From: a virus
Strand: one strand, 5' to 3'
Length of the DNA: 64,000 nt
IMG/VR virus record: IMGVR_UViG_3300019487_000319
Shown: one piece after another, positions 1 through 46,782 of the stretch
Numbering within the stretch: the first letter of the stretch is position 1
How the letters are laid out: each line of letters begins with the position of its first letter
Notes under the pieces: generated by a model
The model's database searches: none
What the model saw: only the letters and a program-made list of their open reading frames with translations
Told to the model about the DNA's origin: nothing
Program-made: the position numbers and the translations under genes

Positions 1-165
1 ATTAATAAAGACACTAAAAAATCATTCGGAGAATTATACAGAGATACTATATTAAAACTTGAAAAATTAAAATCAATGGGTTACAATGTAAAATACATTT
101 GGGAAAATGATTGGAAAAAATTTCAGTGTGGAATAGATAAAAAGATTAAAATACAGAATATTTAA
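1..165 (+). CDS. 3' end of an endonuclease-like gene (Vsr/PD-(D/E)XK-type homing-endonuclease tail); the 5' end lies outside the window
   Basis: Frame 1 is open from the window edge to TAA at 163-165 and ends ...LEKLKSMGYNVKYIWENDWKKF. A similar tail (IRLLHIFEYHWIKNK) follows the nuclease core of ORF 46783-48339. Confidence 0.4.
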   Translation: MNKDTKKSFGELYRDTILKLEKLKSMGYNVKYIWENDWKKFQCGIDKKIKIQNI

Positions 166-166
166 A

Positions 167-901
167 ATGAAAATACTGGCATCTACGCTCAATCATAATT
201 TACCGGAGCTAACAGACAACTTGACAGAACAACTTAGACGTTCAAAATTTACTGATTATGAATTGATGATTGTAGATAATGGCTCTAAGGAACCGTTGGC
301 TAAATCCACGACTCATGTTTCTCCTGAGAATACTTTCTTCGGTGGAGGAGTAAATCTTATTCTGGATTACTTTCTTAATGATACCAACCATGAATATCTA
401 TACATTTTCAATAACGATTTGATATTTCATGGACATGGATTCCTAGAACAATCCGTTAGAGAAATGGAGGCTGCTGGTGCAGACGTTTATTCACCATCAG
501 TAATCAATATGTCTCTTGACCAATGTGCATGGAAACAAATGCATTGTTGGGGAACGGGAGGAACAAGAGAAGTGAAGTGGATAGATTTTCAATGTCCAAT
601 ATTAAGTAGAAGATTGTGTCAACACATAAAAAGTTACCCTGACCAACTTGTGTATGGATGGGGTGTGGATTTTTATACCGGAATGGTGTGTCAACAATTG
701 GGATTCAAAACCGTCGTGTCTGATGCCAATTCTATAGGTCATTTAAATTCCCAAACTTTAAAACTTAATAAGGTAAACATCGGATTAAATGATTTTTGTC
801 AACGTGCCGACGCAAATATGTTTGCATTTTTTAACAGTCAACCAGAACTTACCTCACTATTTCATCATTACAGAGAGTGGGCTAAAAATTATACATTATG
901 A
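167..901 (+). CDS. glycosyltransferase, GT2-like (GT-A fold)
   Basis: 244-aa ORF with YELMIVDNGSKEPL and IFNNDLIF (DxD-like), as in family-2 GTs. It is the first gene of a tightly packed plus-strand sugar operon and overlaps the next ORF by 4 nt. Confidence 0.55.
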   Translation: MKILASTLNHNLPELTDNLTEQLRRSKFTDYELMIVDNGSKEPLAKSTTHVSPENTFFGGGVNLILDYFLNDTNHEYLYIFNNDLIFHGHGFLEQSVREMEAAGADVYSPSVINMSLDQCAWKQMHCWGTGGTREVKWIDFQCPILSRRLCQHIKSYPDQLVYGWGVDFYTGMVCQQLGFKTVVSDANSIGHLNSQTLKLNKVNIGLNDFCQRADANMFAFFNSQPELTSLFHHYREWAKNYTL

Positions 902-1530
902 AATTACTTACCGAAATAGCTAGAAATCACAAAACTGATAAAGGAGAAGAAGGACACGTTTATACCGAAGTCTATGATGATTATCTTTTACCAATAAGAT
1001 TAAAGGAGATGAATTTTCTTGAAATAGGTGTATTCGACGGAGAATCTATGAGAATGTGGAAAGAATATTTGCCTAATGCGAATATTATTGGTTTGGATAT
1101 TAATCCTGAATGTAAGAAACATGAAGGAGAGAAAAACAAAGTTTATATAGGTTCTCAAGTAGATGAAATGGTTTTATGGAAGATTTTTAATGAAAACAAA
1201 CCCATTTCAGTTGTAATTGATGATGGAAGTCATCGATGGGATCACGTTATTAGAACTTTTGATATGGTATTTCCTTTATTGGCACCAGGCGGCTTATACT
1301 TTGTTGAAGATTTACATACTTCTTACGCAGGCGACCCTTGGGCCGCAGGTTCAGAGACGGCTATCAATTATCTGAAGGGATTAATTGATGATGTTAATCT
1401 TCGTGGTAAATCTTTTATGGGATTGAAGGAAGTTGCCGGAAAACCATTATCATACAATGAACGTTGTATTGAGTGGGTTCATAATTACAAAAGCCTAATG
1501 GTTATTAAGAAGCGTCAAGAATCACTATGA
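898..1530 (+). CDS. class I SAM-dependent methyltransferase (TylF/CmcI-like, sugar O-methyltransferase type)
   Basis: FLEIGVFDGESMRMW (SAM motif I), IIGLDINPE, VVIDDGSHRWDH and APGGLYFVEDL. It overlaps both neighbouring ORFs. Confidence 0.6.
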   Translation: MKLLTEIARNHKTDKGEEGHVYTEVYDDYLLPIRLKEMNFLEIGVFDGESMRMWKEYLPNANIIGLDINPECKKHEGEKNKVYIGSQVDEMVLWKIFNENKPISVVIDDGSHRWDHVIRTFDMVFPLLAPGGLYFVEDLHTSYAGDPWAAGSETAINYLKGLIDDVNLRGKSFMGLKEVAGKPLSYNERCIEWVHNYKSLMVIKKRQESL

Positions 1531-2351
1531 TAAGTTGTGAATTCCACGGAAGACTAGGAAACAATATGTTTCAAGTCGCTGCGGCCGCGGCTTTAGCAAA
1601 AAAAGTCAATGTGGAATTTTCTGTACCAAAATACATGTTAGCAGGTCATAGAGGATCACTTCCATCCGACCTTAATGGTTTTGATTATCCATATAATTAT
1701 CACAATGATTCTGATGTAGAACATCATGAAAAAATCGGAGAGAAGGATTCCAAATTTACTGATTTGCCTATAAGGGATAACATCAAACTTTGTGGATTTT
1801 TTCAATCCAGCAAGTATTTTGATGATATTCGTGAAGAGTTGATTCAAAAATATTTTAAACCAGCAGATTGGGTATTGAAACTCTCGGAGAAATATAAAGT
1901 AAGTGATAAAAGTCTCGGAGTATGTGTAAGACGAGGCGATTATTTGATGTTACAACACAATCATTGTGTATTATCTCCAGAATTTTACCAAAATACCTGT
2001 TCTGATGTTGTTTCTAATGAGAGTATTGATTCGGTATATGTATTTTCCGATGATTTTGATTGGTGTGCTGATGTATTTAGTGAAATATCGCCCATATTTG
2101 TCAAGGATGATAAGTTTGTTCAAATGTATTTAATGACACAAATGAAACATATCATACTGGCTAACTCGACCTTTTCTTGGTGGGGTGCCTATCTCAACAA
2201 TAAAGGAGGTCGAATTTATTTTCCCGACCCTTGGTATGGCCCGGCCAACGATAATATAGATGTCAGTGGTTTGATTCTTCCTAATTGGAGAGTAACTAAA
2301 CACGAAAGAACAATTCAATCATATCTGCAACACGAAGCATTGAAAGGATAA
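1527..2351 (+). CDS. GT11-type (alpha-1,2-fucosyltransferase-like) glycosyltransferase
   Basis: Three GT11 signature blocks are present: N-terminal HGRLGNNMFQ, central VCVRRGDY, and C-terminal LANSTFSWWGAYL. Confidence 0.7.
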   Translation: MISCEFHGRLGNNMFQVAAAAALAKKVNVEFSVPKYMLAGHRGSLPSDLNGFDYPYNYHNDSDVEHHEKIGEKDSKFTDLPIRDNIKLCGFFQSSKYFDDIREELIQKYFKPADWVLKLSEKYKVSDKSLGVCVRRGDYLMLQHNHCVLSPEFYQNTCSDVVSNESIDSVYVFSDDFDWCADVFSEISPIFVKDDKFVQMYLMTQMKHIILANSTFSWWGAYLNNKGGRIYFPDPWYGPANDNIDVSGLILPNWRVTKHERTIQSYLQHEALKG

Positions 2352-3062
2352 ATGAAATTAGCAATATGTCTATCCGGCCAACCAAGATTGTTTGATGTCG
2401 CCTACGAATCGTTAAAGCGATTTTACTTTCCAAAGTATGAGTGTGATGTATTCATTCACACATGGAAGGATTCGAACTATAATTCTCAGTTCTCAAATAA
2501 AGTCGTCTCGAATTCCGAAGACCTTCATGGAAATTATATCAAACTGTTCAAACCTAAAAAGGTTATGATAGAAGACCAGATTGTATTCGATAAGACCGGT
2601 ATCTCAGACCCTATATGGGGATGTAAGTTAAATTCGGTATTATCTATGTTTTACTCTGTTCAATTGTCCAACAAACTAAAATGTAAATTTGAACGAGAGA
2701 ATGATTTCAAATATGATTACGTAATGAGAATTAGAACGGATTTGTCATTACACCGACCAATTATTCCGGAAGAAATTCTTCCAAAACACATTGGTTTATT
2801 TAATTGGACTCAGGATTCCGAATATAATGAAAGAGGATTTTCGGATGTATTCTCTGTCGGACCATCAGATTTAATGGATGTATATTCTAATGCTTTTGAT
2901 TCCTTACATCACTATCTATATACGGATAATACATGGAATTTTCATGATTCCAGATTAAGAAACGAATATTTGTTACGAAGACATTTAGAAGTGAATCAAA
3001 TCTCCGTTCAACGATTTCATCATTTAGATGCACAAGACCCTAGTTTCGGAATAGTAAGATGA
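2352..3062 (+). CDS. hypothetical protein of the sugar operon (possible transferase)
   Basis: 236-aa ORF that starts 1 nt after the previous stop and overlaps the next ORF. N-terminus is MKLAICLSGQPR. No motif I can assign. Confidence 0.45.
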   Translation: MKLAICLSGQPRLFDVAYESLKRFYFPKYECDVFIHTWKDSNYNSQFSNKVVSNSEDLHGNYIKLFKPKKVMIEDQIVFDKTGISDPIWGCKLNSVLSMFYSVQLSNKLKCKFERENDFKYDYVMRIRTDLSLHRPIIPEEILPKHIGLFNWTQDSEYNERGFSDVFSVGPSDLMDVYSNAFDSLHHYLYTDNTWNFHDSRLRNEYLLRRHLEVNQISVQRFHHLDAQDPSFGIVR

Positions 3063-3979
3063 AAACAGACATTATAATTCACGTTTTGCCGTTTGAGATT
3101 GATAGATTTGAATATCAAATACTAGAACTAAAAAAGTGCAGTTCCTTATTGAATACTGACGACCAAATAATTATTGATGCAACATTGAATATCAATGATA
3201 TGTTAATCGATTGGAAAAATTCATCCATTCCTAAAGATTTCTTTATTGACCGATTTCTTCATCTCAAAAATCTATGTGATTACGCCGAATGTGTATTTGA
3301 TGTGGATGATAAGGAAAAATGTCTAGGTATAAACGCCAAGAGAAGAAACAGTATTAGGGAACGAGCAGACAAGTGTGACTCGTTTTTGTATCTGGATAAC
3401 GATATGGTCTATCCACATCATGCTTTAAGATATGCATTAGATGCAGCAAAATTGGTAAATACAGAATATTACCTTATCTCTCCACAATCCACCCAACTAT
3501 GGGATGATTCGTGGAAGGTATTGGTCAATGATTCATATTCGAATGTAGGATGTGATAAAATCACAGAACAGAATCCATTTGAAGTCTGTTCAAGAGTATA
3601 TGGAGATATTGAAGTTGTTCCTGTAGATGGATTCAAATTCGGTGGTGGATGGTTTAATTTATTTTCATCCAAACTATTATCTTATACCGATATTCCTGAT
3701 GAATTGGGAGGATATGGATTAGATGATATGTATGTTATGCAGGCGTGCCAAATTATGAAAAGCTTCGGTATGCCCGTTCAACAGTATATATTAAAAAATC
3801 TTGTGGTAACGCAAAATTACCGTTATGGTTATCACATGCAGGATGTGTATAAGAAGTTTATACCATTCATAAATAAGAAAGAAATGTTCATAACCAATGC
3901 AAAGAACCATTATCAAATGGTGATTCAAAGATTTTGGGAGAAATGTAAACATGATATCATTCATAATCCCTACTCGTAA
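3059..3979 (+). CDS. hypothetical protein of the sugar operon
   Basis: 306-aa ORF, translationally coupled on both sides. Has an LYLDNDM (DxD-like) segment but no confident family assignment. Confidence 0.45.
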   Translation: MKTDIIIHVLPFEIDRFEYQILELKKCSSLLNTDDQIIIDATLNINDMLIDWKNSSIPKDFFIDRFLHLKNLCDYAECVFDVDDKEKCLGINAKRRNSIRERADKCDSFLYLDNDMVYPHHALRYALDAAKLVNTEYYLISPQSTQLWDDSWKVLVNDSYSNVGCDKITEQNPFEVCSRVYGDIEVVPVDGFKFGGGWFNLFSSKLLSYTDIPDELGGYGLDDMYVMQACQIMKSFGMPVQQYILKNLVVTQNYRYGYHMQDVYKKFIPFINKKEMFITNAKNHYQMVIQRFWEKCKHDIIHNPYS

Positions 3980-5195
3980 TAATTTGCCTTACGTAAAGAC
4001 GGCAATTTCTAGCATTCGAAAATTTTATTTGGGTGCAGAAATCGTATTATTAGATGACAACTCTACCGATGGAACTGATAAATGGGTTAGCGAAACTTAC
4101 GACCCACATCTTACATATTATAAAAACGAAGGCAGACAAGTGGGACACACCGTTCTCTATGATATCGGTATTAAAATGTGTAAACATGAAATCTTCTCAA
4201 TATTTCATGCCGATATGATTTGTGGGCCTAATTATGTTGAAAATCTTCTTAAACATTTGAAGCCAGAAGGTGTAATTTCAGCAACAAGAATAGAACCACC
4301 GTTACATCCTCCCGGAAAAGAAAAAATTGTGATGGATTTCGGCATGTATCCCGGGGATTTTAAACAATCCGAGTTTATTACATTTTGTCGTGATTCCCAA
4401 GAGAATTCGTCTAATAAGGATGTAACGACAAGGGGTATATTCGCACCGTGGGCAATGTATAAAGAAGATTTCCTAAAAATCGGCGGGCATGATTCTTTGT
4501 TTTCTCCATTCCCATACGAAGATTCCGATATATTTCAACGTTTTATTTTAGCCGGATACAATATCAAACAAAGTCGTGATTCTTTTGTTTATCATTTTAC
4601 ATGTCGTGGACACAGATGGACAGAACAAGTTCAAAAAGATGATAACTTCTATAAGTTATGTTGTGCAAAAAACATGAATCACTTTATACGAAAGTGGGGA
4701 AGCTGGATAGAAAACGACGAGTTATGTTATCCAGTTATCAAACCATTCTACAACATCGGATTTGTGGTTACAAATTGCAATCTCCAATTACTCGGTGCAT
4801 TGGAACCTTGGTGTTCTACCATCTCATGTGATTGTCCAGAATGGGAATCTTACATCAAACAAGTTCAATCAGGAACTCCATTCGACTTAAAAAAGAGGGT
4901 GTTTTATAGGTCGGCTGAAATCAAGAATGACATAATTGTTCATTTTGATGCTTCGCAGTTGACACAAGAAAGATTCACATTCCTTACTCAATTACCAAAA
5001 ATACTTTTGGATAGTGGAGATTTGGGAGAAATGAAATTCGACATATTTACGTTCTTCATAAAGAGAATGCCAAGGTTGGAGTCATTGTTGATTCACAATA
5101 ACAATGAACTCTATCGTTCACGATTAATTGAAATTCCGGTGACCGACGAATATTACACCAACGAATTATTTAGAGTCTTTCAAAATACCAAGTAA
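3951..5195 (+). CDS. glycosyltransferase family 2 with an extra C-terminal domain
   Basis: MISFIIPTRNNLPYVKTAISSI...VLLDDNSTDGT...FHADMI is a classical GT2 N-terminus. About 180 further residues are of unknown function. Confidence 0.7.
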   Translation: MISFIIPTRNNLPYVKTAISSIRKFYLGAEIVLLDDNSTDGTDKWVSETYDPHLTYYKNEGRQVGHTVLYDIGIKMCKHEIFSIFHADMICGPNYVENLLKHLKPEGVISATRIEPPLHPPGKEKIVMDFGMYPGDFKQSEFITFCRDSQENSSNKDVTTRGIFAPWAMYKEDFLKIGGHDSLFSPFPYEDSDIFQRFILAGYNIKQSRDSFVYHFTCRGHRWTEQVQKDDNFYKLCCAKNMNHFIRKWGSWIENDELCYPVIKPFYNIGFVVTNCNLQLLGALEPWCSTISCDCPEWESYIKQVQSGTPFDLKKRVFYRSAEIKNDIIVHFDASQLTQERFTFLTQLPKILLDSGDLGEMKFDIFTFFIKRMPRLESLLIHNNNELYRSRLIEIPVTDEYYTNELFRVFQNTK

Positions 5196-6135
5196 CGGTG
5201 TCTTTTAAAGCTTTGTCGAATGGTGTGTGTTCAATCTTACCAAACGTGTGTTCAAAATCTGTGGTGTCGATTGCATATCTAAAATCGTGACCTTTTCTAT
5301 CTTCTACGAATTGTATTGATTTTTCTGGGTCTTTATTACACAATACACAGAGTTTTTTGACCAGGTCAAGATTTCGGATTTCATTATTTCCACCAATCAA
5401 ATACTGGCCTCCTGGCTGTCCACGTTTTACAACTTCCCAAACACACTTACAATGGTCATCGACGTAAATCCAATCTCGAATGTTTGTTCCTATTCCATAA
5501 ACAGGAACCGGTTCGTCGTTCTTCAGCTTCTTAATTGCTAGAGGAATAAGTTTTTCTGGATATTGTCTTGGACCAAAGTTATTTGAACAGTTGGTTATCA
5601 TGACAGGAAAATTGTGTGTTCTATAGAATGATTTACACAATAAATCCGATGACGCCTTCGAAGCGGCATACGGTGAATTTGGATGGTATGGAGAACGTTT
5701 TGTAAATGGCAAATCACCATCACCTAAATCACCAAACACTTCATCGGTGGAAATGTGAATGAATCTTACATCTGTTCTTCCTTTCCATAATTCCAAGAAA
5801 GTATTCAATAGAGTGAAGGTTCCGTTGATATTGGTTGTAATGAACGATTGGCCGGATTCTATCGACCTATCCACATGTGATTCAGCAGCAAAATGAACAA
5901 TTGTGTCGATGTTATATCGTTCGTATATTGTCTTCAGAAGAGATACGTCATTTATGTCTCCTTTGTAAAACTCATATCTATTACGAAGAACAAAATAGTC
6001 AGGTAAATTTTTGTGGCTTGCTGCGTAGGTGCATAAGTCAAGATTCACCACTAATTCCACTTCATCCTTTTTGGCCAAGAGATGAATAAAATTGCTACCG
6101 ATAAAACCAAGTCCCCCCGTGCAAAGTATTCTCAT
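5170..6135 (-). CDS. rmlB: dTDP-glucose 4,6-dehydratase
   Basis: MRILCTGGLGFIGSNF (Rossmann GxxGxxG), ISTDEVFG, YAASKASSD (YxxxK) and a DDHC block. Typical size of 321 aa. Confidence 0.9.
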   Translation of the reverse strand: MRILCTGGLGFIGSNFIHLLAKKDEVELVVNLDLCTYAASHKNLPDYFVLRNRYEFYKGDINDVSLLKTIYERYNIDTIVHFAAESHVDRSIESGQSFITTNINGTFTLLNTFLELWKGRTDVRFIHISTDEVFGDLGDGDLPFTKRSPYHPNSPYAASKASSDLLCKSFYRTHNFPVMITNCSNNFGPRQYPEKLIPLAIKKLKNDEPVPVYGIGTNIRDWIYVDDHCKCVWEVVKRGQPGGQYLIGGNNEIRNLDLVKKLCVLCNKDPEKSIQFVEDRKGHDFRYAIDTTDFEHTFGKIEHTPFDKALKDTVTWYFERL

Positions 6136-6335
6136 ATATTTTTAAATTCTTTTCTAAGTTGTTTAATAGATTTATTGAATTTTGCGTTGCACTTTTGTGA
6201 ACAAAATTTAGTTTTTATTATATTTTCTGTTCCTTCTTTTTTGAATAATTTTTCACAAAAATCACATCGAATCGAAAAAATAAACACATCAGTATTTATT
6301 TGACTCTTTCTTAGGAATATCTTATTCAGTATCAT
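6132..6335 (-). CDS. small CxxC...CxxC zinc-ribbon-like protein
   Basis: 67-aa ORF with CDFCEK...CSQKC. Its stop overlaps the rmlB start by 4 nt. Confidence 0.4.
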   Translation of the reverse strand: MILNKIFLRKSQINTDVFIFSIRCDFCEKLFKKEGTENIIKTKFCSQKCNAKFNKSIKQLRKEFKNI

Positions 6336-6415
6336 CCATCATACATATCATTTTAAATTCCGACCCACCAATAATAAAAATACGCTTGTATCATACAATT
6401 TCTATTTATTGCAAT

Positions 6416-6763
6416 ATGACACTGTTATTAATTTTATCCTGTTTTATCGCAATATTTTTACTTGCTTGGTTCAAATCCGATTTCATTATTGAATACGGAA
6501 AGTTACTGGGATTATCCAAGTTATTAAAACTTCGTGAATATAAAATGAAAAAATTGGAACATGCTAATCCCGTTCCAACATATACTCAATTCTTGAGAAT
6601 GACTTATGATAACTTCTTCGTTAAATTGATTACTTGTCCTATTTGCTTAGCCATTTGGTTATCAATCATCGTAGGAATATTCTATCATCTATCTACTTTT
6701 ATTCCTGTCATTTGTATAATGTCTTTGATATTTTACGGAATTTGTAGAAAACTATTAACTTAA
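6416..6763 (+). CDS. small integral membrane protein (DUF1360-like CPxC..W motif)
   Basis: The ORF track starts at a TTG (6386). The first ATG gives MTLLLILSCFIAIFLL. There are three hydrophobic segments and LITCPICLAIWLS. Confidence 0.45.
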   Translation: MTLLLILSCFIAIFLLAWFKSDFIIEYGKLLGLSKLLKLREYKMKKLEHANPVPTYTQFLRMTYDNFFVKLITCPICLAIWLSIIVGIFYHLSTFIPVICIMSLIFYGICRKLLT

Positions 6764-6764
6764 T

Positions 6765-7055
6765 ATGGATGTCCGTGGCGTTGGTGCGTTCTTTTATTTT
6801 TTAACCAGCAATGGATTAAATGGAGTGAGTCCAGATACGAACGCATTTATAGTATGTGTTGAAGAATATAGCCGTCTTTGTGCATGTGACAGTCCTGAAT
6901 TTAGAGAGTCTAAACAAAATAATTGTAGAGCACTCTACGAAACATGTATATCTCGGTCGGATGGATTAAAATCTATATTCTTATCCAAGACACAAGGAAA
7001 CAGGATTACTTTTTATTCCGACCACGGAAAAATACTAAAAACTTTTTCTCGTTAA
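6765..7055 (+). CDS. hypothetical protein (weak call)
   Basis: 96-aa ORF starting 2 nt after the previous stop. Cys-rich with no recognisable motif. It fills the convergent gap. Confidence 0.25.
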   Translation: MDVRGVGAFFYFLTSNGLNGVSPDTNAFIVCVEEYSRLCACDSPEFRESKQNNCRALYETCISRSDGLKSIFLSKTQGNRITFYSDHGKILKTFSR

Positions 7056-7321
7056 TTTCCGTCTTCTGGTTTAACATCAAATATATCCGATGGAAGTTCG
7101 GAACCATCAGGTAGATGCAATTTTCCATTTTTCAATTGTTCCTTGCCAGCTTCAAGTGTTCCTAAAACTACAGCCGCACCTGGGTCATGAGTCATATAAG
7201 ATAAGAAAGTAAGAAGGTCATAATCTACCTTTTCTCCATTATGAAACATAACTAATACTTCACAATCATCCATATCTTCGGGATAACGTGTTAATGCTTT
7301 TTTAAGATAACCTAATTTCAT
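7052..7321 (-). CDS. hypothetical protein
   Basis: 89-aa ORF that starts 2 nt after the upstream minus-strand gene ends. Confidence 0.5.
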   Translation of the reverse strand: MKLGYLKKALTRYPEDMDDCEVLVMFHNGEKVDYDLLTFLSYMTHDPGAAVVLGTLEAGKEQLKNGKLHLPDGSELPSDIFDVKPEDGN

Positions 7322-7322
7322 A

Positions 7323-7589
7323 TTATTCGTATTTCTTTGTTTCGCCTTGTTTGAAATTTTTGAACATGACTTTCCCTTCTGCGGCTAAAATCAACATTTC
7401 ATCCAGTTCTTGAATTAAATCATTCCTTTGTATATTCAAGATATTAGTTTTCCTCGTTGCATCAGCCACATCTTTGTCTGTCTTTGACTTATCTCTCTTC
7501 AATTCTTCGAGATGCCAAATTTTTAGGTTTACTATTCCGAGTTGGTCTATTAAATTCCCGAATGATACATTCATAGTTTTTCTTTCCAT
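7323..7589 (-). CDS. DUF4254-like protein
   Basis: LIDQLGIVNLKIWHLEEL ... NILNIQRNDLIQELDEML ... FKQGETKKY resembles, from memory, the C-terminal half of DUF4254. That family often sits next to glycosyltransferases. Confidence 0.45.
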   Translation of the reverse strand: MERKTMNVSFGNLIDQLGIVNLKIWHLEELKRDKSKTDKDVADATRKTNILNIQRNDLIQELDEMLILAAEGKVMFKNFKQGETKKYE

Positions 7590-7655
7590 ATACCGAAATA
7601 ATTTGTCTCGGAATATAATTTGTTATCTACTCTAAAAATCCCATATATTAATTTT

Positions 7656-8885
7656 TTAATCATTTCCAATGACTTTAAATTGTGGGCATGGAACAATAAA
7701 TTTACCACCAGCTTTTATGTAATCTGATTCTCTTTTTATAAATTCCGACAAAAAATGCCACGGGAGTATAAGTAAATAATCAGGTTTAGCTTTTCTCATT
7801 TCATCTTCCGAAAAAATTGGTATATTGGTTCCAACCGTCTTCAACCCCCACTTATACGGGCTTCTTTCGGCCATACCATCAATCAGTGTATGATCCAAAC
7901 CAAAATATTGTAACAACGTGTTTCCCTTGGTAGATGCACCATATCCCCACACCGTCTTTCCGTTAACTTTTTCAGTTTTAACAAAATCAACAACTTGTTT
8001 CTTTAGATTTTCTATTTTGTAATAGAAACTTTCCCAAACAACTAATTGTTTATCACCGACATGTCCATTGATCTTTTCATGAAACAACAGAGACTCCATT
8101 CTGAAAAGACAAACGTCTCTGTATGGTTGAGTTGAAAAGTTTTCTGTTTTAAACGTATCCTTTACAACGTATATTCTGAACGACCCACCATTTACATCGT
8201 TCAATTGACAATCTATAACTCTAAATCCATTTGACTCAAGAAGGTTTTTCATATTAGTCAATGTATAGTAGTAAATGTGTTCGTGACAAATGTTATCAAC
8301 TGCCACTTGATGAATCATAAGTGGTGTGTAACTCAATTGCAAAACAAACAGACCATCATCATCCATAACGTTATATACATCTTGTAAAAATGGATTTGGA
8401 TTATCCAAATCATAAAACATTGCTATACACGTCACTACTTTTGCTTTAAGATGGCCGAATTTTTGACTTCTATATGCTTTTTCACTAAAGTAATCTTGAA
8501 CAATAACATTTGCGTGGGTTTCGGATTCTTTCTTAAATGTATCATCGGCGGGGTCTATTCCGATTCGGATTATATTATCATCCAAAAAGCTTAAAAGAGT
8601 CCCATCGTTACAAGCAATATCCAACCATACATCATTTTCTTTTAGATTAACTAAACCACAAATCGAATGAACTATAGACTTTAGTTCATTTTTCATGGTG
8701 GCATTAATTCCGGAACGATACCAGTATCTTCCATACATAGTATCCAATGGTGCAGGCTTTTCTAGTCTGACCGCCCCTAAATTATTATCATAAACAAGTT
8801 TTATTTCTTGTTTAGGATGTGCTGTTTGACCTTCTTTAATAAAGTCAGACACATGTAATTCTCCGAGTGTAAATAATTCTTTCAT
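7656..8885 (-). CDS. NDP-hexose C-methyltransferase (TylC3-like)
   Basis: SAM-binding WLDIACNDGTLLSF plus the C-terminal C-methyltransferase block VWGYGASTKGNTLLQYFGL...PDYLLILPWHF...GGKFIVPCPQ. Confidence 0.75.
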   Translation of the reverse strand: MKELFTLGELHVSDFIKEGQTAHPKQEIKLVYDNNLGAVRLEKPAPLDTMYGRYWYRSGINATMKNELKSIVHSICGLVNLKENDVWLDIACNDGTLLSFLDDNIIRIGIDPADDTFKKESETHANVIVQDYFSEKAYRSQKFGHLKAKVVTCIAMFYDLDNPNPFLQDVYNVMDDDGLFVLQLSYTPLMIHQVAVDNICHEHIYYYTLTNMKNLLESNGFRVIDCQLNDVNGGSFRIYVVKDTFKTENFSTQPYRDVCLFRMESLLFHEKINGHVGDKQLVVWESFYYKIENLKKQVVDFVKTEKVNGKTVWGYGASTKGNTLLQYFGLDHTLIDGMAERSPYKWGLKTVGTNIPIFSEDEMRKAKPDYLLILPWHFLSEFIKRESDYIKAGGKFIVPCPQFKVIGND

Positions 8886-8886
8886 A

Positions 8887-9738
8887 TTACCAAATCCAAT
8901 TCTTTAAACATTCTTCCAACGATTCATGAACTTCTTTCATTTCTAATCCAACACTTTTTAATTTATCGGTATTCAACACCGTATTTGACCTTGGTGCCCT
9001 CACCATCGAATTAAATTGTTCCAAACTTTCGAAATATTGAAATTCCTTTTCTACTTTTAGCGTTTTCTTTATCATTTCTACAACTTCAGTTGTTGTGATT
9101 TCGCCTTTATTGGTTACATTATATATTCCAAACGGAACCTTGTTTTGTAGGGAATCCAAACACACCTTTACGTATTCTTTTTTATTTGATAAGGAATTCT
9201 TAACATTTAAAAGTGTGTTGTATCTTAACAATTTAGAAATGTAGTTTCTTTCATTGTTTCTTTCTTCAAATGGAATTCTCAATCTCCAAATGTATTTATC
9301 AGGCAACTCACTCAACATTTCTTCTCCTAATGCTTTCGTTCCACTGTAAAAACTACATGGTTGATTTTTAAAGGAAAAATTCGGTTCATCTTCCTCGGTA
9401 AATCCTCCATCTTTATATCCATTGTATATACAGCCCGATGAAACATGTCCCAACACTATGTTTTTTCTTGCACATAAAGTGGCTAATATTCTAGGAAATA
9501 CTACATTACCTGATAATGTTTCTGATTTAGCATCCTCACACACATCTACATTTGGTTTTCCGGTGTATCCAGCACAATTGATAATAGTGTCTATTTTAAA
9601 TGTAGATATAAATCTATCAATCTCATCGATATTTGCATCTATTGCAGACATTGGATATGACCCTATTCCACGACCTGCTAATTGTCGTTGAAATTCATGT
9701 CCTATATATCCACTAGACCCAAATAATAAAACTTTCAT
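8887..9738 (-). CDS. NAD(P)-dependent sugar-nucleotide reductase (RmlD-like dTDP-4-dehydro-6-deoxyhexose reductase)
   Basis: MKVLLFGSSGYIGHEF (Rossmann), SSGCIY and FYSGTKALGE (YxxxK). It is 283 aa and sits between the C-methyltransferase and rmlA. Confidence 0.7.
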   Translation of the reverse strand: MKVLLFGSSGYIGHEFQRQLAGRGIGSYPMSAIDANIDEIDRFISTFKIDTIINCAGYTGKPNVDVCEDAKSETLSGNVVFPRILATLCARKNIVLGHVSSGCIYNGYKDGGFTEEDEPNFSFKNQPCSFYSGTKALGEEMLSELPDKYIWRLRIPFEERNNERNYISKLLRYNTLLNVKNSLSNKKEYVKVCLDSLQNKVPFGIYNVTNKGEITTTEVVEMIKKTLKVEKEFQYFESLEQFNSMVRAPRSNTVLNTDKLKSVGLEMKEVHESLEECLKNWIW

Positions 9739-10598
9739 ACCAATCTCTCTAAGTAACTTTTATAATCACTTTTTGGTAGGCTTCCTACCGATTCCTTAAA
9801 TTGTTCTTTAGAAATGAAACCATTTACTAAACATGATTCTTCATAACATCCAATCATTATTCCCTGTCTTTCTTGGACAGATTGAATGTATGCTGATGCT
9901 TGAAATAATGTGGCTGGGGTACCGGCATCCAACCATGCTGTTCCTCTTTCCATAATTTTGGCTGTTAGTGTTCCTTCTTGCATATACATTTTTAACAAAT
10001 CCACTATTTCTAACTCCCCTCGTGTGGATGGCCTTAATGTATTAGCAAAATTAGAAGCCATTCCATCAAAATAATACAGACCCGGTATAGCATATTTACT
10101 CTTTGGTTGTATTGGTTTTTCTTCTAAAGAAATAACGTTACCCATTTTATCGAACTCAACTACACCATAAGCTCTTGGATTATTAACTTCGTATCCAAAC
10201 ACCGACGCTCCTTTTGGTGGAGTTATAACATATTTGTATTTATCAGGAGGTTGAATATTTCCATGAAATATGTTATCTCCGAGAATCAAACAGGAGGGTT
10301 TTTCTTCCAAGTAATCCTCAGCAATAATTAATGCCTGAGCTAATCCTTTTGGTTGGTCTTGAATCGCATATTGTATGCACAATCCCCATTTGTTTCCGTT
10401 TCCTAATAAGTTTTTGTAAAAATCAATGTATTGAGGGCTTGTTATCAATAATATCTCTTTTATTCCGTTATTGATTAAAGTGGTCAACGAATAATAGACC
10501 ATCGGTTTATCATATACAGGCAATAGTTGTTTATTAACCATTGTTGTCAATGGATATAATCGAGTTCCTGACCCACCTGATAAGATTATGCCTTTCAT
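9735..10598 (-). CDS. rmlA: glucose-1-phosphate thymidylyltransferase
   Basis: MKGIILSGGSGTRLYPLT...KQLLPVYDKPMVYY...PKGLAQA...LGDNIF...EKP..PKS.YA..GLYF. Canonical RmlA blocks at 287 aa. Confidence 0.9.
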   Translation of the reverse strand: MKGIILSGGSGTRLYPLTTMVNKQLLPVYDKPMVYYSLTTLINNGIKEILLITSPQYIDFYKNLLGNGNKWGLCIQYAIQDQPKGLAQALIIAEDYLEEKPSCLILGDNIFHGNIQPPDKYKYVITPPKGASVFGYEVNNPRAYGVVEFDKMGNVISLEEKPIQPKSKYAIPGLYYFDGMASNFANTLRPSTRGELEIVDLLKMYMQEGTLTAKIMERGTAWLDAGTPATLFQASAYIQSVQERQGIMIGCYEESCLVNGFISKEQFKESVGSLPKSDYKSYLERLV

Positions 10599-10850
10599 TT
10601 ATTTACTTTGATGATTTTGATTTAAATAATTAACAATTTCATTTACCAATTGATTACATCCTTCTTCGGATTCTAATAAAGCCAGATCGCCGTCGGTGAG
10701 GCCAAATACAAACACCTTTCCGAGAGTCCACACAGCAAGTTCAACATCTGTATCCTTACATGTAATAGAATGACTTCCAGTAAATGATTCCCCCATTGCT
10801 TTCAGGGGAAACGTTTCATTAAGTAGTTTGAATAGATGTCTGGTTTTCAT
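10599..10850 (-). CDS. hypothetical protein
   Basis: 83-aa ORF immediately upstream of rmlA on the same strand. Confidence 0.5.
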   Translation of the reverse strand: MKTRHLFKLLNETFPLKAMGESFTGSHSITCKDTDVELAVWTLGKVFVFGLTDGDLALLESEEGCNQLVNEIVNYLNQNHQSK

Positions 10851-11589: not shown

Positions 11590-11645
11590 ACATATAACCG
11601 TTTCTACGTTAATATGTATGTCCGAAAAACTAAAAACGTTTTATT

Positions 11646-46707: not shown

Positions 46708-46782
46708 ACATCAAATAATAATTTGATTTTTTTTGTATTCGATTCTTAATTATTGTTACTGCGTTTGAACCAATGGATCAAT

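What the first reader, a model, noticed from the sequence alone, without database searches (positions are those of the whole stretch)
167..10598. Virus-borne dTDP-deoxyhexose pathway with a C-methyltransferase and a battery of glycosyltransferases
RmlA (9735-10598), RmlB (5170-6135), a TylC3-type NDP-hexose C-methyltransferase (7656-8885) and an RmlD-like reductase (8887-9738) are all present. I see no RmlC-type 3,5-epimerase. Together these would make a branched (C-methyl) 6-deoxyhexose rather than plain rhamnose. Next to them are two GT2s, a GT11, a TylF/CmcI-like methyltransferase, a DUF4254-like gene and two unassignable ORFs, enough to assemble and decorate an oligosaccharide. Such a complete glycan-building cluster is unusual in a tailed phage. 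The acceptor is unknown and could be virion proteins, the host envelope or DNA.
Basis: partly seen in the sequence, partly recalled or inferred. Interest (0 to 1): 0.7.

Follow-up and report, generated by a model that had tools for sequence, protein, structure and literature searches.

The report
Jumbo-phage sugar island with C-methyltransferase
A very large tailed phage carries a conserved gene island that can make activated rhamnose-type sugars, probably including a rare methyl-branched one, plus four to five enzymes to string sugars together; this kind of island is known in big viruses, but this combination of enzymes is new.

Summary
All listed ORFs exist at the stated coordinates and hit the stated families. 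RmlA and RmlB score above NCBIfam equivalog cut-offs.

The region is phage DNA. The window lies about 18 nt from the end of a 340,916-bp metagenomic contig of a contractile-tailed jumbo phage. The island is syntenic in related phage contigs from other samples and is under strong purifying selection.

The interpretation needs three corrections.

1. The "RmlD-like reductase" is not an RmlD. It is an NRS/ER (Mimivirus L780)-type bifunctional 3,5-epimerase/4-reductase, with the Cys/Lys epimerisation pair invariant. The missing RmlC is therefore explained, and plain dTDP-L-rhamnose can be made.

2. The C-methyltransferase travels with DUF4254. In almost every other virus this pair sits with GDP-mannose dehydratase and often a GDP-fucose-synthase-like enzyme. 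Only this lineage pairs it with RmlA/RmlB/ER. Its use of the dTDP intermediate is plausible but inferred.

3. One "unassignable" ORF (3059-3979) is a DxD glycosyltransferase with a GT-A fold.

Comparable islands exist in huge phages and in a cyanophage genome, so the kind is known and the variant is new. The acceptor is unresolved. All transferases are soluble, and no Wzx/Wzy or DNA-hydroxymethylation genes lie in the window.

The parts
167..901 (+). GT2a: divergent GT2/GT-A-like glycosyltransferase, 244 aa, soluble. First gene of a six-gene block whose members overlap or abut.
   Evidence: PF00535 27 bits, cut-off 23.3. No PHROG. No TM segment. 82-87% identical orthologues in L001/L002 with pN 0.08-0.12 against pS 0.70-0.74.
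898..1530 (+). Class I SAM methyltransferase of the Methyltransf_24 (TylF/CmcI-like) type. Candidate sugar O-methyltransferase.
   Evidence: PF13578 31.8 bits. phrog_21658 methyltransferase 96 bits. A Methyltransf_24 gene also sits inside the RmlA-ER-RmlB cassette of L034.
1527..2351 (+). GT11-family (alpha-1,2-fucosyltransferase family) glycosyltransferase. Carries a CVRRGDY version of the family's HxRRGD donor motif.
   Evidence: PF01531 79 bits. phrog_2644 159 bits. Sequence read. GT11 homologues (26-34%) recur in C-MT islands L004, L005, L007, L009, L012, L013, L032 and L036.
2352..3062 (+). DUF7796 protein, 236 aa, function unknown. Conserved motifs are SG(Q/L)PR, D(V/I)FIH(T/S)W and YDxVxRxRxD.
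   Evidence: PF25072 34 bits. phrog_13607 83 bits. Alignment A5. No PDB sequence hit and no hhalign match to the GT-A family A3. Recurs in L004, L007, L012 and L013.
3059..3979 (+). Previously unassigned ORF. It is a GT-A-fold glycosyltransferase with a DxD motif (D113-N-D115) and an invariant D223. It belongs to a small family with no Pfam, PHROG or PDB sequence match.
   Evidence: 317 representatives at E<=1e-3 among 1.84 billion proteins. Conserved residues from A3. AF2 model pLDDT 96.9. Foldseek gave 224 PDB matches at E<=1e-3, all nucleotide-diphospho-sugar transferase folds (TarP/TarS, GpgS, hyaluronan synthase, GlfT2, RmlT), with TM about 0.41-0.48. Viral GT2-like models matched in BFVD.
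3951..5195 (+). GT2b: GT2 glycosyltransferase (residues 1-230) with an unassigned C-terminal domain of about 180 aa. It belongs to the constant core of the island in this phage group.
   Evidence: PF00535 69 bits, PF10111, PF02709. 60-81% identical in L001, L002, L035 and L036. No TM segment.
5170..6135 (-). RmlB, dTDP-glucose 4,6-dehydratase. Converges on GT2b with a 26-nt overlap.
   Evidence: TIGR01181 391 bits, cut-off 365.1. Overlap. Present only in the window lineage (L001, L002, L029). The closest other copy (48%) is in the L034 cassette.
6132..6335 (-). 67-aa ORF with a CxxC...CxxC pattern, upstream of RmlB with a 4-nt overlap. Present in only some relatives.
   Evidence: Sequence. tblastn hit only in L003.
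6386..6763 (+). 125-aa small membrane protein, weakly DUF1360-like. It is the only protein with TM segments in the island. It belongs to the constant core.
   Evidence: PF07098 22 bits. Kyte-Doolittle maxima 2.5-2.65. Orthologues in L001, L002, L035 and L036.
6765..7055 (+). 96-aa conserved ORF of unknown function.
   Evidence: Orthologues at 50-65% in L001/L002 and 23-30% in L035/L036. pN 0.21-0.28 against pS 0.71-0.73.
7052..7321 (-). 89-aa conserved ORF of unknown function, directly downstream of DUF4254.
   Evidence: Orthologues in L001, L002, L035 and L036. pN 0.13-0.21 against pS 0.61-0.75.
7323..7574 (-). DUF4254 short form (83 aa). A helical hairpin plus a conserved C-terminal tail. 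It is the constant neighbour of viral C-methyltransferases. Function unknown; proposed accessory partner.
   Evidence: PF14063 38 bits. P0241 is 100% identical at 83 aa. 15 invariant, mostly polar, residues. AF2 pLDDT 91.9 with helices 5-27 and 33-65. No informative PDB match. Lies next to or within 6 kb of a C-MT in L001-L013, L026-L029, L031, L035, L036 and L037.
7656..8885 (-). NDP-4-keto-hexose C-methyltransferase of the TylC3/TcaB9/MtmC superfamily, in a subfamily that lacks the N-terminal zinc site.
   Evidence: PF08484 138.7 bits plus PF13489. PDB hits MtmC 4rv9 at 8e-36, TcaB9, and the 5t64 'sugar 3-C-methyl transferase'. Invariant Y54, E202, H203 (TcaB9 Y76, E224, H225) and SAM motif D89-G95. 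D159 and C200 replace TcaB9 H181 and Y222. 64-91% identical to thousands of metagenome proteins.
8887..9738 (-). Bifunctional NDP-4-keto-6-deoxyhexose 3,5-epimerase/4-reductase of the NRS/ER (UGER, Mimivirus L780) type, not RmlD.
   Evidence: PDB hits A. thaliana 3,5-epimerase/4-reductase 4qqr at 5e-38 and L780 7jid at 7e-30, against true RmlDs at 1e-12 or weaker. S101/Y131/K135 triad plus C103 (= L780 C108) and K169 (= L780 K175), all invariant in 44 homologues. RmlD structures 1vl0 and 4wpg have Tyr at the Cys position, and 1vl0 has Asn at the Lys position. TIGR01214 only 82 of 224 bits.
9735..10598 (-). RmlA, glucose-1-phosphate thymidylyltransferase. Overlaps ER by 4 nt.
   Evidence: TIGR01207 375 bits, cut-off 360.65. 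Overlap.
10599..10850 (-). 83-aa conserved ORF that abuts RmlA and overlaps the upstream DruA-domain gene. It ties the sugar genes to the same run of minus-strand genes.
   Evidence: Orthologues at 64-66% in L001/L002.

Best explanation
The region is one arm of a hypervariable glycan-building island in a contractile-tailed jumbo phage (contig 340,916 bp).

Shown by sequence:
- RmlA makes dTDP-glucose and RmlB makes dTDP-4-keto-6-deoxy-D-glucose.
- The next enzyme is an NRS/ER/L780-type bifunctional 3,5-epimerase/4-reductase. The three genes therefore form a complete, RmlC-independent route to dTDP-L-rhamnose.

Inferred from gene order:
- The SAM-dependent C-methyltransferase is encoded between ER and RmlB, always with its DUF4254 neighbour.
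- It intercepts part of the 4-keto intermediate and methylates the carbon next to the keto group. C-3 is most likely, by homology to 3-C-methyltransferases.
- ER then epimerises C-5 and reduces C-4. The product would be a dTDP-6-deoxy-3-C-methyl-L-hexose, such as 3-C-methyl-L-rhamnose (the nogalose core).

Inferred downstream steps:
- Four soluble glycosyltransferases act next: GT2a, GT11, the new GT-A protein and GT2b. DUF7796 may also take part, and relatives carry at least one more GT2 and a DUF6492 beyond the contig end.
- Together with a TylF-like O-methyltransferase they would assemble and decorate an oligosaccharide in the cytoplasm of the infected cell.
- The most likely acceptor is phage structural proteins, as in mycobacteriophage and giant-virus virion glycosylation. 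This last step is the weakest.
For: Phage origin:
- The rest of the window encodes RNR, DnaB, UvsX, gp32-like protein, clamp loader, tail sheath, tube and baseplate.
- An identical ER protein lies on the 340,916-bp contig ERZ27251177 k141_279683, and the window sits at that contig's end.
- The same gene order occurs in L001 (97.9 kb), where the island is internal to the contig, and in L002/L003.
- GC is 0.32-0.37 in the island against 0.30-0.41 elsewhere.

Genes are functional:
- Every island gene has pN 0.07-0.28 against pS 0.6-0.9 versus L001/L002.

RmlA and RmlB:
- Both score above equivalog cut-offs.

ER is bifunctional:
- Best solved relatives are 4qqr and 7jid. C103 and K169 align with L780 C108 and K175, which PMC9614988 reports as catalytic by mutagenesis.
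- L780 accepts dTDP substrates.
- All five catalytic residues are invariant in 44 homologues.

C-MT is intact:
- The SAM motif and the Y/E/H active-site residues are invariant.

Operon coupling:
- RmlA and ER overlap by 4 nt, and ER and C-MT are 1 nt apart.

Parallel logic elsewhere:
- In GDP-type islands the C-MT sits with a 4,6-dehydratase (GMD) and often a bifunctional epimerase/reductase (Fcl-like). Examples are L004 and DSL-LC02, with the order GMD-C-MT-Fcl.
- RmlB and ER fill exactly those two roles here.

Cytoplasmic assembly:
- No GT or MT has a TM segment, and no Wzx, Wzy or phosphoglycosyl transferase is present.

The GT count was raised by the GT-A model of ORF 3059-3979.
Against: Against the C-MT using the dTDP intermediate:
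- 24 of 26 C-MT loci outside the five contigs of this phage group carry GMD rather than RmlB.
- Only six conservative residues distinguish the C-MT of this lineage from the GMD-linked ones, so the active site was not visibly remodelled.
- More distant members of the same phage group keep C-MT/DUF4254 with a heptose-type supply set (L035) or with no dehydratase within 10 kb (L036).
- RmlA-ER-RmlB also exists as a stand-alone cassette without a C-MT (L034).

Other weaknesses:
- The position of methylation (C-3 versus C-5) and all stereochemistry cannot be read from sequence.
- GT11 enzymes normally use GDP-fucose.
- Nothing identifies the acceptor. The island lies beside replication and nucleotide-metabolism genes, not structural genes.
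- Only 19% of the genome is visible.
Confidence: 0.55

Rival explanations
1. There are two unconnected sugar routes. RmlA/RmlB/ER only make dTDP-L-rhamnose. The C-MT/DUF4254 pair works on a different 4-keto nucleotide sugar, most likely GDP-4-keto-6-deoxy-D-mannose. That substrate would be supplied by the host or by genes elsewhere in the 341-kb genome. The GT11 enzyme would then transfer the resulting fucose-like branched sugar.
For: - GMD accompanies the C-MT in nearly all other viral loci and in an archaeal MAG.
- C-MT, DUF4254, GT11 and DUF7796 are shared with GDP-type islands, whereas RmlA/RmlB/ER are unique to this lineage.
- Only six conservative lineage-specific substitutions occur in the C-MT.
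- L036 has a C-MT without any dehydratase within 10 kb.
- L034 has RmlA-MT24-ER-RmlB without a C-MT.
Against: - No GMD or Fcl lies in the window or within 10 kb in L001/L002.
- The methylated 4-keto product would lack a reductase, unless ER takes GDP sugars or the C-MT itself reduces, as MtmC does.
- The C-MT is inserted inside the rhamnose cassette, 1 nt from ER.
Confidence: 0.25
2. The glycan is put on the host envelope (LPS core or O-antigen, capsule or S-layer) during infection. This would block superinfection or alter the receptor, as proposed for LPS-like gene clusters of cyanomyoviruses and for GtrABC-type serotype conversion.
For: - GT2, GT11 and TylF-like methyltransferases with Rml genes are the standard content of O-antigen loci (established knowledge).
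- phrog_841, 'GtrB-like O-antigen conversion', weakly matches GT2b, and the GT11 PHROG is filed under moron/AMG.
- The island is hypervariable between closely related phages, like O-antigen loci.
- O-antigen GTs are also TM-less peripheral proteins.
Against: - No flippase, polymerase, ligase or initiating phosphoglycosyl transferase lies in the window or in the 10-kb flanks of relatives.
- No lysogeny gene is seen in the 64-kb window, and the phage is T4-like in organisation.
- The same hypervariability is expected for a virion-surface glycan under selection.
Confidence: 0.2
3. The sugars decorate phage DNA. This would be an oligosaccharide hypermodification of a hydroxymethylated pyrimidine, as in T-even, RB69 or YerA41-type phages and the metaviromic GT-A/GT-B clusters.
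For: - The island lies in the same run of minus-strand genes as a dNMP-kinase-like gene, two DruA-domain genes and a clamp-loader-like gene. A Mom-family gene is 10 kb away.
- In L037 a DUF4254/C-MT pair lies among RNR, dUTPase and RecA genes with no GT within 8 kb.
- The new GT-A protein resembles TarP-type folds, which were also the top structural matches of DNA-modifying phage GT-As.
Against: - No thymidylate-synthase-like hydroxymethylase, 5mYOX/TET or C5-MT is in the window. These mark such clusters.
- dTDP-deoxyhexoses, GT11 and C-methyl sugars have no precedent on DNA.
- The Mom-family gene already suggests a different DNA modification.
Confidence: 0.08
4. Without any 3,5-epimerase the pathway gives only a D-series branched 6-deoxyhexose (for example an evalose- or D-virenose-like sugar), and the reductase is a plain 4-ketoreductase.
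For: No RmlC cupin is in the window. The dTDP route to D-virenose proposed in silico for Coxiella uses exactly RmlA, RmlB, a C-MT and a 4-ketoreductase.
Against: The reductase carries the invariant Cys/Lys epimerisation dyad. Its best solved relatives are the two characterised bifunctional epimerase/reductases. It fails the RmlD equivalog.
Confidence: 0.07
5. The region is host DNA next to a prophage end, or an assembly chimera.
For: The window starts at a contig end, and the + strand block is transcribed opposite to most of the genome.
Against: - In L001 the island is internal to a 97.9-kb phage contig and continues into further phage-type genes, including a homing endonuclease.
- The same order occurs in contigs from at least four samples.
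- Composition is uniform.
- Flanking genes are phage genes on the one visible side.
Confidence: 0.01

Closest known systems
Plant NRS/ER and Mimivirus L780 (UGER): bifunctional NDP-4-keto-6-deoxyglucose 3,5-epimerase/4-reductase (PDB 4qqr, 7jid)
   Same: The single RmlD-like SDR domain is the same. The S/T-Y-K triad plus the Cys/Lys epimerisation pair are conserved. It replaces RmlC+RmlD. L780 accepts dTDP as well as UDP substrates.
   Different: Identity to the solved enzymes is modest. The upstream enzymes here are bacterial-type RmlA/RmlB (dTDP) rather than a UDP-glucose dehydratase. The enzyme is encoded by a tailed phage. No close homologue is in the reference phage collection, where the best match is 26%. 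It may have to handle a 3-C-methylated substrate.
TylC3/EryBIII/TcaB9/MtmC/KijD1 NDP-hexose 3-C-methyltransferases of antibiotic deoxysugar pathways
   Same: The two-domain architecture is shared (class I MTase plus the Methyltransf_14 C-terminal domain). The SAM motif is conserved, as are the Tyr and Glu-His residues that in TcaB9 sit at the sugar (the TcaB9 residue roles are from memory). The enzyme needs a 4-keto sugar.
   Different: Identity is low, with PDB matches at E-values of 8e-36 to 7e-23. There is no N-terminal Cys4 zinc site. Asp and Cys replace TcaB9 His181 and Tyr222. No 2,3-dehydratase or aminotransferase is present, so the substrate is not 2-deoxygenated. The subfamily is normally linked to GMD (GDP sugars) and to DUF4254.
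Proposed virenose (6-deoxy-3-C-methyl-gulose) pathway of Coxiella burnetii LPS (PMC3539893)
   Same: The logic is the same: a 4,6-dehydratase, then a TylC3-like C-3 methyltransferase, then a bifunctional epimerase/reductase (the GDP route) or RmlA/RmlB plus a C-MT plus a reductase (the dTDP route).
   Different: That pathway is an in silico model in a bacterium for an O-antigen sugar. Here the route is viral, combines the dTDP front end with an NRS/ER-type back end, and includes DUF4254.
GDP-type C-methyltransferase islands of huge phages (L004, L005, L031; LR756501, 735 kb) and of the cyanomyovirus genome DSL-LC02 (OR032571)
   Same: The C-MT is 64-66% identical in the huge phages and 35% in DSL-LC02. 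DUF4254 is present in the huge phages, and GT11, DUF7796, methyltransferases and several GTs recur. All are viral.
   Different: They use GMD plus a GDP-fucose-synthase-like enzyme. The window lineage uses RmlA, RmlB and an NRS/ER-type enzyme instead. The published description of DSL-LC02 mentions GMD and GDP-fucose synthase but not the methyltransferase between them.
Virion glycosylation systems of mycobacteriophages and glycan clusters of giant viruses (Mimivirus, chloroviruses)
   Same: Virus-encoded soluble GTs and methyltransferases, and in giant viruses also nucleotide-sugar enzymes, build glycans on virion proteins independently of host glycosylation (established knowledge).
   Different: No evidence here identifies virion proteins as the acceptor. 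The island is not next to capsid genes. To my knowledge no C-branched sugar has been reported in a viral glycan.

Membership tests
RmlA (glucose-1-phosphate thymidylyltransferase, TIGR01207) | Full-length match above the curated equivalog cut-off | tested here: met
   375.2 bits against cut-off 360.65, residues 2-286 of 287.
RmlB (dTDP-glucose 4,6-dehydratase, TIGR01181) | Full-length match above the curated equivalog cut-off | tested here: met
   391.1 bits against cut-off 365.1.
RmlD (dTDP-4-dehydrorhamnose reductase, TIGR01214) | Match above the equivalog cut-off, with the RmlD-type active-site strand (S-T-D-Y-V-F) | tested here: not met
   82.2 bits against cut-off 224. The strand reads S-S-G-C-I-Y. 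Solved RmlDs score 1e-12 or weaker, against 5e-38 for NRS/ER.
NRS/ER / UGER (L780) bifunctional 3,5-epimerase/4-reductase | RmlD-like SDR domain with a Ser/Thr-Tyr-Lys reduction triad | tested here: met
   S101, Y131 and K135 align to T113, Y144 and K148 of 4qqr and are invariant in 44 homologues.
NRS/ER / UGER (L780) bifunctional 3,5-epimerase/4-reductase | Cys and Lys acid/base pair for epimerisation (L780 C108 and K175, shown by mutagenesis) | tested here: met
   C103 and K169 align to L780 C108 and K175, and to C115 and K183 of 4qqr. Both are invariant in the family. Solved RmlDs 1vl0 and 4wpg have Tyr at the Cys position, and 1vl0 has Asn at the Lys position.
NRS/ER / UGER (L780) bifunctional 3,5-epimerase/4-reductase | Demonstrated conversion of NDP-4-keto-6-deoxyglucose to NDP-L-rhamnose | not testable with these tools
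   Needs an enzyme assay.
TylC3/TcaB9-type NDP-hexose C-methyltransferase | Class I MTase domain plus the Methyltransf_14 C-terminal domain | tested here: met
   PF13489 54.8 bits and PF08484 138.7 bits. Aligns over residues 36-405 to MtmC, TcaB9 and 5t64.
TylC3/TcaB9-type NDP-hexose C-methyltransferase | Active-site residues of TcaB9 (Y76, H181, Y222, E224, H225; numbering from memory, consistent with the mutant entries listed) | tested here: inconclusive
   Y54, E202 and H203 are conserved and invariant. H181 is replaced by D159 and Y222 by C200, both invariant in this subfamily.
TylC3/TcaB9-type NDP-hexose C-methyltransferase | N-terminal zinc-binding domain (PF08421 Methyltransf_13) | tested here: not met
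   No PF08421 hit, and no Cys in residues 1-75. The C-MT of L037 does have it.
TylC3/TcaB9-type NDP-hexose C-methyltransferase | Substrate (nucleotide carrier) and position of methylation | not testable with these tools
   Context gives dTDP here but GDP in 24 of 26 loci outside this phage group. C-3 versus C-5 cannot be read from sequence.
GT11 (alpha-1,2-fucosyltransferase family) | Pfam PF01531 above the gathering score, with the HxRRGD donor motif | tested here: met
   79 bits against 23.9. The motif reads C-V-R-R-G-D-Y, with His replaced by Cys. The donor sugar was not tested.
GT2 | PF00535 above the gathering score | tested here: met
   GT2b 69 bits. GT2a 27 bits against cut-off 23.3, which is borderline.
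GT-A fold glycosyltransferases (for ORF 3059-3979) | Rossmann-like GT-A fold with a DxD metal/donor motif | tested here: met
   pLDDT 96.9. Foldseek probability 1.0 to many GT-A structures. D113 and D115 are nearly invariant and D223 is invariant. No sequence-level membership of any Pfam GT family for the window protein itself; only four of the 62 aligned family members give weak hits to GT families.
Wzx/Wzy- or ABC-dependent O-antigen/capsule locus | Initiating phosphoglycosyl transferase, flippase or ABC transporter, and polymerase | tested here: not met
   None in the window or in the flanks of L001/L002. No TM proteins except a 125-aa ORF.
Phage DNA glycan-hypermodification gene cluster | GT next to a ThyS-like hydroxymethylase or a C5-MT plus 5mYOX | tested here: not met
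   None among the window ORFs scanned. The rest of the genome is unseen.
Mycobacteriophage-type virion glycosylation | GT genes beside capsid and tail-tube genes whose C-termini carry the O-glycans | not tested
   The island lies next to replication genes, and the major capsid gene is not in the window. Glycoproteomics is needed.

The most novel reading that the evidence does not exclude
Large phages share a two-protein module, a zinc-less TylC3-like C-methyltransferase plus the 83-aa helical-hairpin protein DUF4254, that makes C-branched deoxysugars. This lineage has re-plumbed the module from the usual GDP-mannose supply (GMD/Fcl) onto a hybrid dTDP route: bacterial RmlA/RmlB feeding a eukaryote/giant-virus-type NRS/ER enzyme. 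The virion, or less probably the DNA, would then carry an oligosaccharide containing a 3-C-methyl-6-deoxy-L-hexose. That sugar class has never been reported from any virus. DUF4254 would be an obligatory partner of the methyltransferase.
Probability: 0.3. Interest if true: 0.72.

Novelty: new variant of a known kind. Interest (0 to 1): 0.55.

Why it matters
- If the pathway runs as inferred, it would be the first C-branched sugar in a viral glycan. It would also be a compact four-enzyme route (RmlA, RmlB, C-MT, ER) to a dTDP-3-C-methyl-L-deoxyhexose, of use for glycodiversification.
- RmlC-less rhamnose synthesis through NRS/ER-type enzymes would not be confined to eukaryotes and giant viruses.
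- DUF4254 gains its first functional context: a constant neighbour of C-methyltransferases in viruses.
- Closely related jumbo phages keep a fixed island position but swap sugar-supply modules (dTDP-hexose, heptose-type, none). This is the signature of diversifying selection on a surface glycan.
- The acceptor question (virion, envelope or DNA) becomes directly testable on any cultured relative.

Tried and rejected
- Megablast of 1-12000 against 50,697 phage records gave no match.
- Host-flank or chimera origin was rejected on synteny and composition.
- DUF4254 gave only chance hits in a profile search of PDB sequences. Foldseek returned only generic helical hairpins with E>0.4. A suspected MazG-like relationship could not be supported and was dropped.
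- ORF 3059-3979 gave nothing in Pfam, PHROGs or a PDB profile search. Only the predicted structure resolved it.
- DUF7796 gave no PDB profile hit and no hhalign relation to the GT-A family A3.
- A search for residues that separate dTDP-context from GDP-context C-MTs gave only six conservative differences. It does not settle the nucleotide carrier.
- BLASTP found no relation between the DruA-domain ORF 10819-11589 and the Mom-family ORF.
- The TcaB9 mechanism papers were not held, so the residue roles are from memory.
- No paper linking a 3-C-methyltransferase, phage and glycosyltransferase was found. DUF4254 appears in only two papers, listed; neither was opened.
- I could not read beyond the 64-kb window of the 340,916-bp contig, nor beyond 10-kb flanks in relatives. 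RmlC, GMD, Fcl or a hydroxymethylase elsewhere in the genome are therefore not excluded.

Full report
**Observation.**
- Pfam and NCBIfam confirm RmlA (9735-10598; TIGR01207, 375 bits, cut-off 361) and RmlB (5170-6135; TIGR01181, 391 bits, cut-off 365).
- They also confirm a two-domain C-methyltransferase (7656-8885; Methyltransf_23 plus Methyltransf_14, 139 bits) and an RmlD-fold SDR (8887-9738).
- The remaining hits are two GT2s (167-901, borderline at 27 bits; 3951-5195, 69 bits), a GT11 (1527-2351, 79 bits), a Methyltransf_24/TylF-like methyltransferase (898-1530) and a DUF4254 protein (7323-7589).
- The DUF4254 gene most likely starts at 7574, giving 83 aa, as in the identical database protein.
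- The two 'unassignable' ORFs are 2352-3062 (DUF7796) and 3059-3979.
- The six + strand genes overlap or abut one another. GT2b and RmlB converge with a 26-nt overlap. RmlA, ER and C-MT are joined by a 4-nt overlap and a 1-nt gap.

**It is phage DNA, from a jumbo phage.**
- The rest of the window encodes ribonucleotide reductase, DnaB, UvsX, a gp32-like protein, clamp-loader-like protein, exonuclease, tail sheath, tube and baseplate proteins.
- The closest reference sheath proteins are from Microcystis phage Mel-JY01, a 484-kb uncultured phage and Flavobacterium phages.
- The ER protein is found 100% identical on ENA contig ERZ27251177 k141_279683 of 340,916 bp. That locus ends 184 nt beyond the GT2a gene, so the window begins about 18 nt from a contig end.
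- Three related contigs from other samples (L001, 97.9 kb; L002, 74 kb; L003) carry the same genes in the same order. In L001 the island is internal to the contig.
- Those contigs show that the island continues past window position 1: a small ORF, a NUMOD3 homing endonuclease in L001, a further 300-aa GT2, a DUF6492 protein and a 264-aa ORF. Window bases 1-165 encode the C-terminus of an endonuclease-like ORF.
- Against L001/L002 every island gene, small ORFs included, has pN 0.07-0.28 against pS 0.6-0.9. Nothing is decaying.

**The reductase is a bifunctional epimerase/reductase.**
- The 283-aa SDR fails the RmlD equivalog (82 of 224 bits).
- Its best solved relatives are the Arabidopsis 3,5-epimerase/4-reductase NRS/ER (4qqr, 5e-38) and the Mimivirus UDP-L-rhamnose synthase L780 (7jid, 7e-30). 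Genuine RmlDs score 1e-12 or worse.
- In the printed alignments S101, Y131 and K135 match the reduction triad. C103 and K169 match L780 C108 and K175.
- The giant-virus glycan review reports C108 and K175 as key catalytic residues confirmed by mutagenesis. It also reports that L780 uses dTDP- as well as UDP-4-keto-6-deoxyglucose (PMC9614988).
- The aligned RmlD structures have Tyr at the Cys position, and 1vl0 has Asn at the Lys position.
- All five residues are invariant in 44 homologues.
- The absence of RmlC is thus explained. RmlA+RmlB+ER is a complete route to dTDP-L-rhamnose.
- The same RmlC-less cassette, with a Methyltransf_24 gene but no C-MT, occurs on another phage-like 128-kb contig (L034) and in a cellular-looking locus (L033).
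- No close homologue is in the reference phage collection; the best match is 26% identical.

**The C-methyltransferase and DUF4254.**
- The C-MT aligns over nearly its whole length with MtmC, TcaB9 and the 5t64 'sugar 3-C-methyl transferase'.
- Its SAM motif is invariant in 42 family members, as are Y54, E202 and H203 (TcaB9 Y76, E224, H225; the roles are from memory).
- TcaB9 H181 and Y222 are replaced by invariant Asp and Cys. The N-terminal zinc site is absent.
- The subfamily is very widespread in metagenomes at 64-91% identity. It is rare in reference phages: 6 of 50,697 records, including the 735-kb phages LR756501/3 and the cyanophage genome DSL-LC02. PHROGs has no family for it.
- A scan of IMG/VR gave 23 viral loci.
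- DUF4254 short-form proteins (81-87 aa) lie next to or within 6 kb of the C-MT in every locus whose C-MT is at least 64% identical, except one archaeal MAG.
- A divergent DUF4254 (51% identical) on an unrelated 185-kb contig again sits next to a C-MT, this time of the zinc-domain type.
- DUF4254 is predicted with pLDDT 92 to be a helical hairpin with a conserved tail. It has 15 invariant, mostly polar, residues. No sequence or fold match is informative.
- I take it to be an accessory partner of the C-MT. This is inference.

**Which nucleotide sugar does the C-MT use?** This is the main uncertainty.

*Evidence for a different supply:*
- In 24 of 26 C-MT loci outside the five contigs of this phage group, the neighbouring dehydratase is GDP-mannose 4,6-dehydratase. 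It is often accompanied by a GDP-fucose-synthase-like bifunctional epimerase/reductase. In L004, GMD scores 439 bits (cut-off 415) and the Fcl-like protein 438 bits. In DSL-LC02 the order is GMD-C-MT-Fcl.
- Only the window lineage has RmlA, RmlB and the NRS/ER-type enzyme.

*Evidence for a carrier swap:*
- RmlB and ER fill exactly the two roles that GMD and Fcl fill elsewhere.
- The C-MT is embedded in the rhamnose cassette.
- This argues for a like-for-like swap of the nucleotide carrier.

*Evidence against a swap:*
- The C-MT of this lineage differs from the GDP-linked ones at only six conservative positions.
- More distant members of the same phage group keep C-MT/DUF4254 with other supply sets. 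L035 has an HddA-like kinase, an RfaE-like nucleotidyltransferase, an Fcl-like SDR and a B12-radical-SAM methyltransferase. L036 has no dehydratase within 10 kb.

*Weights:* about 0.55 on the coupled dTDP route and 0.25 on two independent routes.

*Predicted product if coupled:* a dTDP-6-deoxy-C-methyl-L-hexose. Methylation at C-3 is favoured because all characterised relatives that matched are 3-C-methyltransferases. A 3-C-methyl intermediate can only be epimerised at C-5. The closest chemical precedents are the nogalose core (3-C-methyl-L-rhamnose; own knowledge) and the in silico virenose routes of Coxiella (PMC3539893).

**The transferases and the acceptor.**
- ORF 3059-3979 belongs to a small family: 317 representatives among 1.84 billion proteins.
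- The family has a nearly invariant DxD and an invariant Asp.
- Its AlphaFold model (pLDDT 96.9) matches GT-A glycosyltransferases throughout PDB and BFVD.
- The window therefore encodes four glycosyltransferases. It also encodes DUF7796, whose fold I could not establish, and an O-methyltransferase candidate.
- None of these has a TM segment. The only membrane protein is a 125-aa ORF.
- No flippase, polymerase, initiating phosphoglycosyl transferase, thymidylate-synthase-like hydroxymethylase or TET/5mYOX gene was found among the window ORFs scanned.
- Cytoplasmic assembly on a soluble acceptor, virion proteins by analogy with mycobacteriophages and giant viruses, is my preferred reading.
- Envelope modification remains a real alternative, because O-antigen GTs are also peripheral proteins.
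- DNA decoration is a minority possibility, raised by the neighbouring dNMP-kinase-like, DruA-domain and Mom-family genes and by the L037 context.

**Comparative picture.**
- Within this phage group the island sits at a fixed place next to a DruA-domain gene.
- Its constant core is C-MT, DUF4254, three small ORFs including the membrane protein, and GT2b.
- Its variable content is RmlA/ER/RmlB, GT11, DUF7796, MT24 and GT2a in the window lineage. Other sets occur in L035 and L036.
- This O-antigen-like modular turnover suggests diversifying selection on the glycan.

**Novelty and score.**
- Virus-encoded nucleotide-sugar pathways with batteries of GTs are a known kind (cyanomyoviruses, huge phages, giant viruses, mycobacteriophages).
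- What is new is the combination of bacterial RmlA/RmlB, an NRS/ER-type enzyme in a phage, a C-MT/DUF4254 module otherwise tied to GDP sugars, and a new GT-A family.
- I found no paper describing a phage C-methyl sugar pathway. The DSL-LC02 paper overlooked the methyltransferase between GMD and Fcl.
- I rate it a new variant of a known kind, with interest 0.55.

Noticed in passing
window 10819-11589 and 13104-14312 (- strand): Two ORFs carry the Druantia DruA domain (PF14236; 89 and 70 bits). They are 24% identical to each other. Both are conserved in L001, L002 and L035, and at least DruA1 in L036. The first overlaps the small ORF that abuts RmlA. A defence-system domain as a conserved phage gene next to the glycan island is unexplained.
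   Followed up: partly
window 20305-21078 (- strand): A Mom-family protein (PF25680, 148 bits). It suggests that this phage modifies its DNA in a Mu Mom-like way. A Mom gene is also present in relative L035.
   Followed up: no
window 1-165 (+), 36685-37437 (-), 46753-48339 (+), 58163-58747 (-), and the insert in 21834-25133 (-): Many homing-endonuclease genes are present. There is an endonuclease-like C-terminal fragment at the contig end, and L001 has a NUMOD3 gene at the same place. There is also a NUMOD3 ORF, a 528-aa HNH ORF on the opposite strand among tail genes, a GIY-YIG+NUMOD3 ORF, and an HNH segment inside the 1099-aa RNR ORF, which is intein-like. The copy at the contig end may be why assemblies break here.
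   Followed up: partly
window 32682-34064, 34077-36683 and 36685-37437 (- strand): The 460-aa ORF matches only the C-terminal part of a phage DNA polymerase family (phrog_17, positions 954-1233). The adjacent 868-aa ORF has no hit, and a NUMOD3 endonuclease gene follows. This may be a split or highly divergent DNA polymerase.
   Followed up: no
window 43612-44559, 48336-50357, 51307-51810, 52856-53350 and 45420-45902 (- strand): A group of auxiliary genes: a cytidylyltransferase-like protein, a 673-aa Pol-beta-type nucleotidyltransferase, an NT5C 5'-nucleotidase, a NUDIX hydrolase and an Hsp20. They may serve nucleotide or NAD salvage.
   Followed up: no
L035 12743-21127 and L036 1-17095: In more distant members of the same phage group the island holds different content. 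L035 has a B12-binding radical-SAM methyltransferase, an HddA-like heptose kinase, an RfaE-like nucleotidyltransferase, an Fcl-like SDR and TylF. L036 has GT4, DUF6492, Methyltransf_21 and GT11 but no sugar dehydratase. The island is hypervariable around a constant C-MT/DUF4254/GT2b core.
   Followed up: partly
L037 5937-8258: On an unrelated 185-kb contig a divergent DUF4254 lies beside a zinc-domain C-methyltransferase (PF08421+PF08484) and a Methyltransf_21 gene. The surrounding genes are RNR, dUTPase, NADAR, RNase T and RecA, with no glycosyltransferase within 8 kb. The C-MT/DUF4254 pair may not always serve a glycan island.
   Followed up: no
L034 4552-7811 and L033 4846-7922: An RmlC-less cassette of RmlA, an NRS/ER-type enzyme and RmlB occurs on another phage-like contig (with a Methyltransf_24 gene) and in a cellular-looking locus next to a Bac_transf gene. 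NRS/ER-type rhamnose synthesis on dTDP sugars may be widespread outside eukaryotes.
   Followed up: partly
L030 10001-16662: In a Woesearchaeota MAG a 65%-identical C-MT lies in an archaeal glycosylation cluster next to an STT3/AglB oligosaccharyltransferase, a GMD-like SDR and several GT4s, without DUF4254. This suggests C-methyl sugars in archaeal N-glycans.
   Followed up: no
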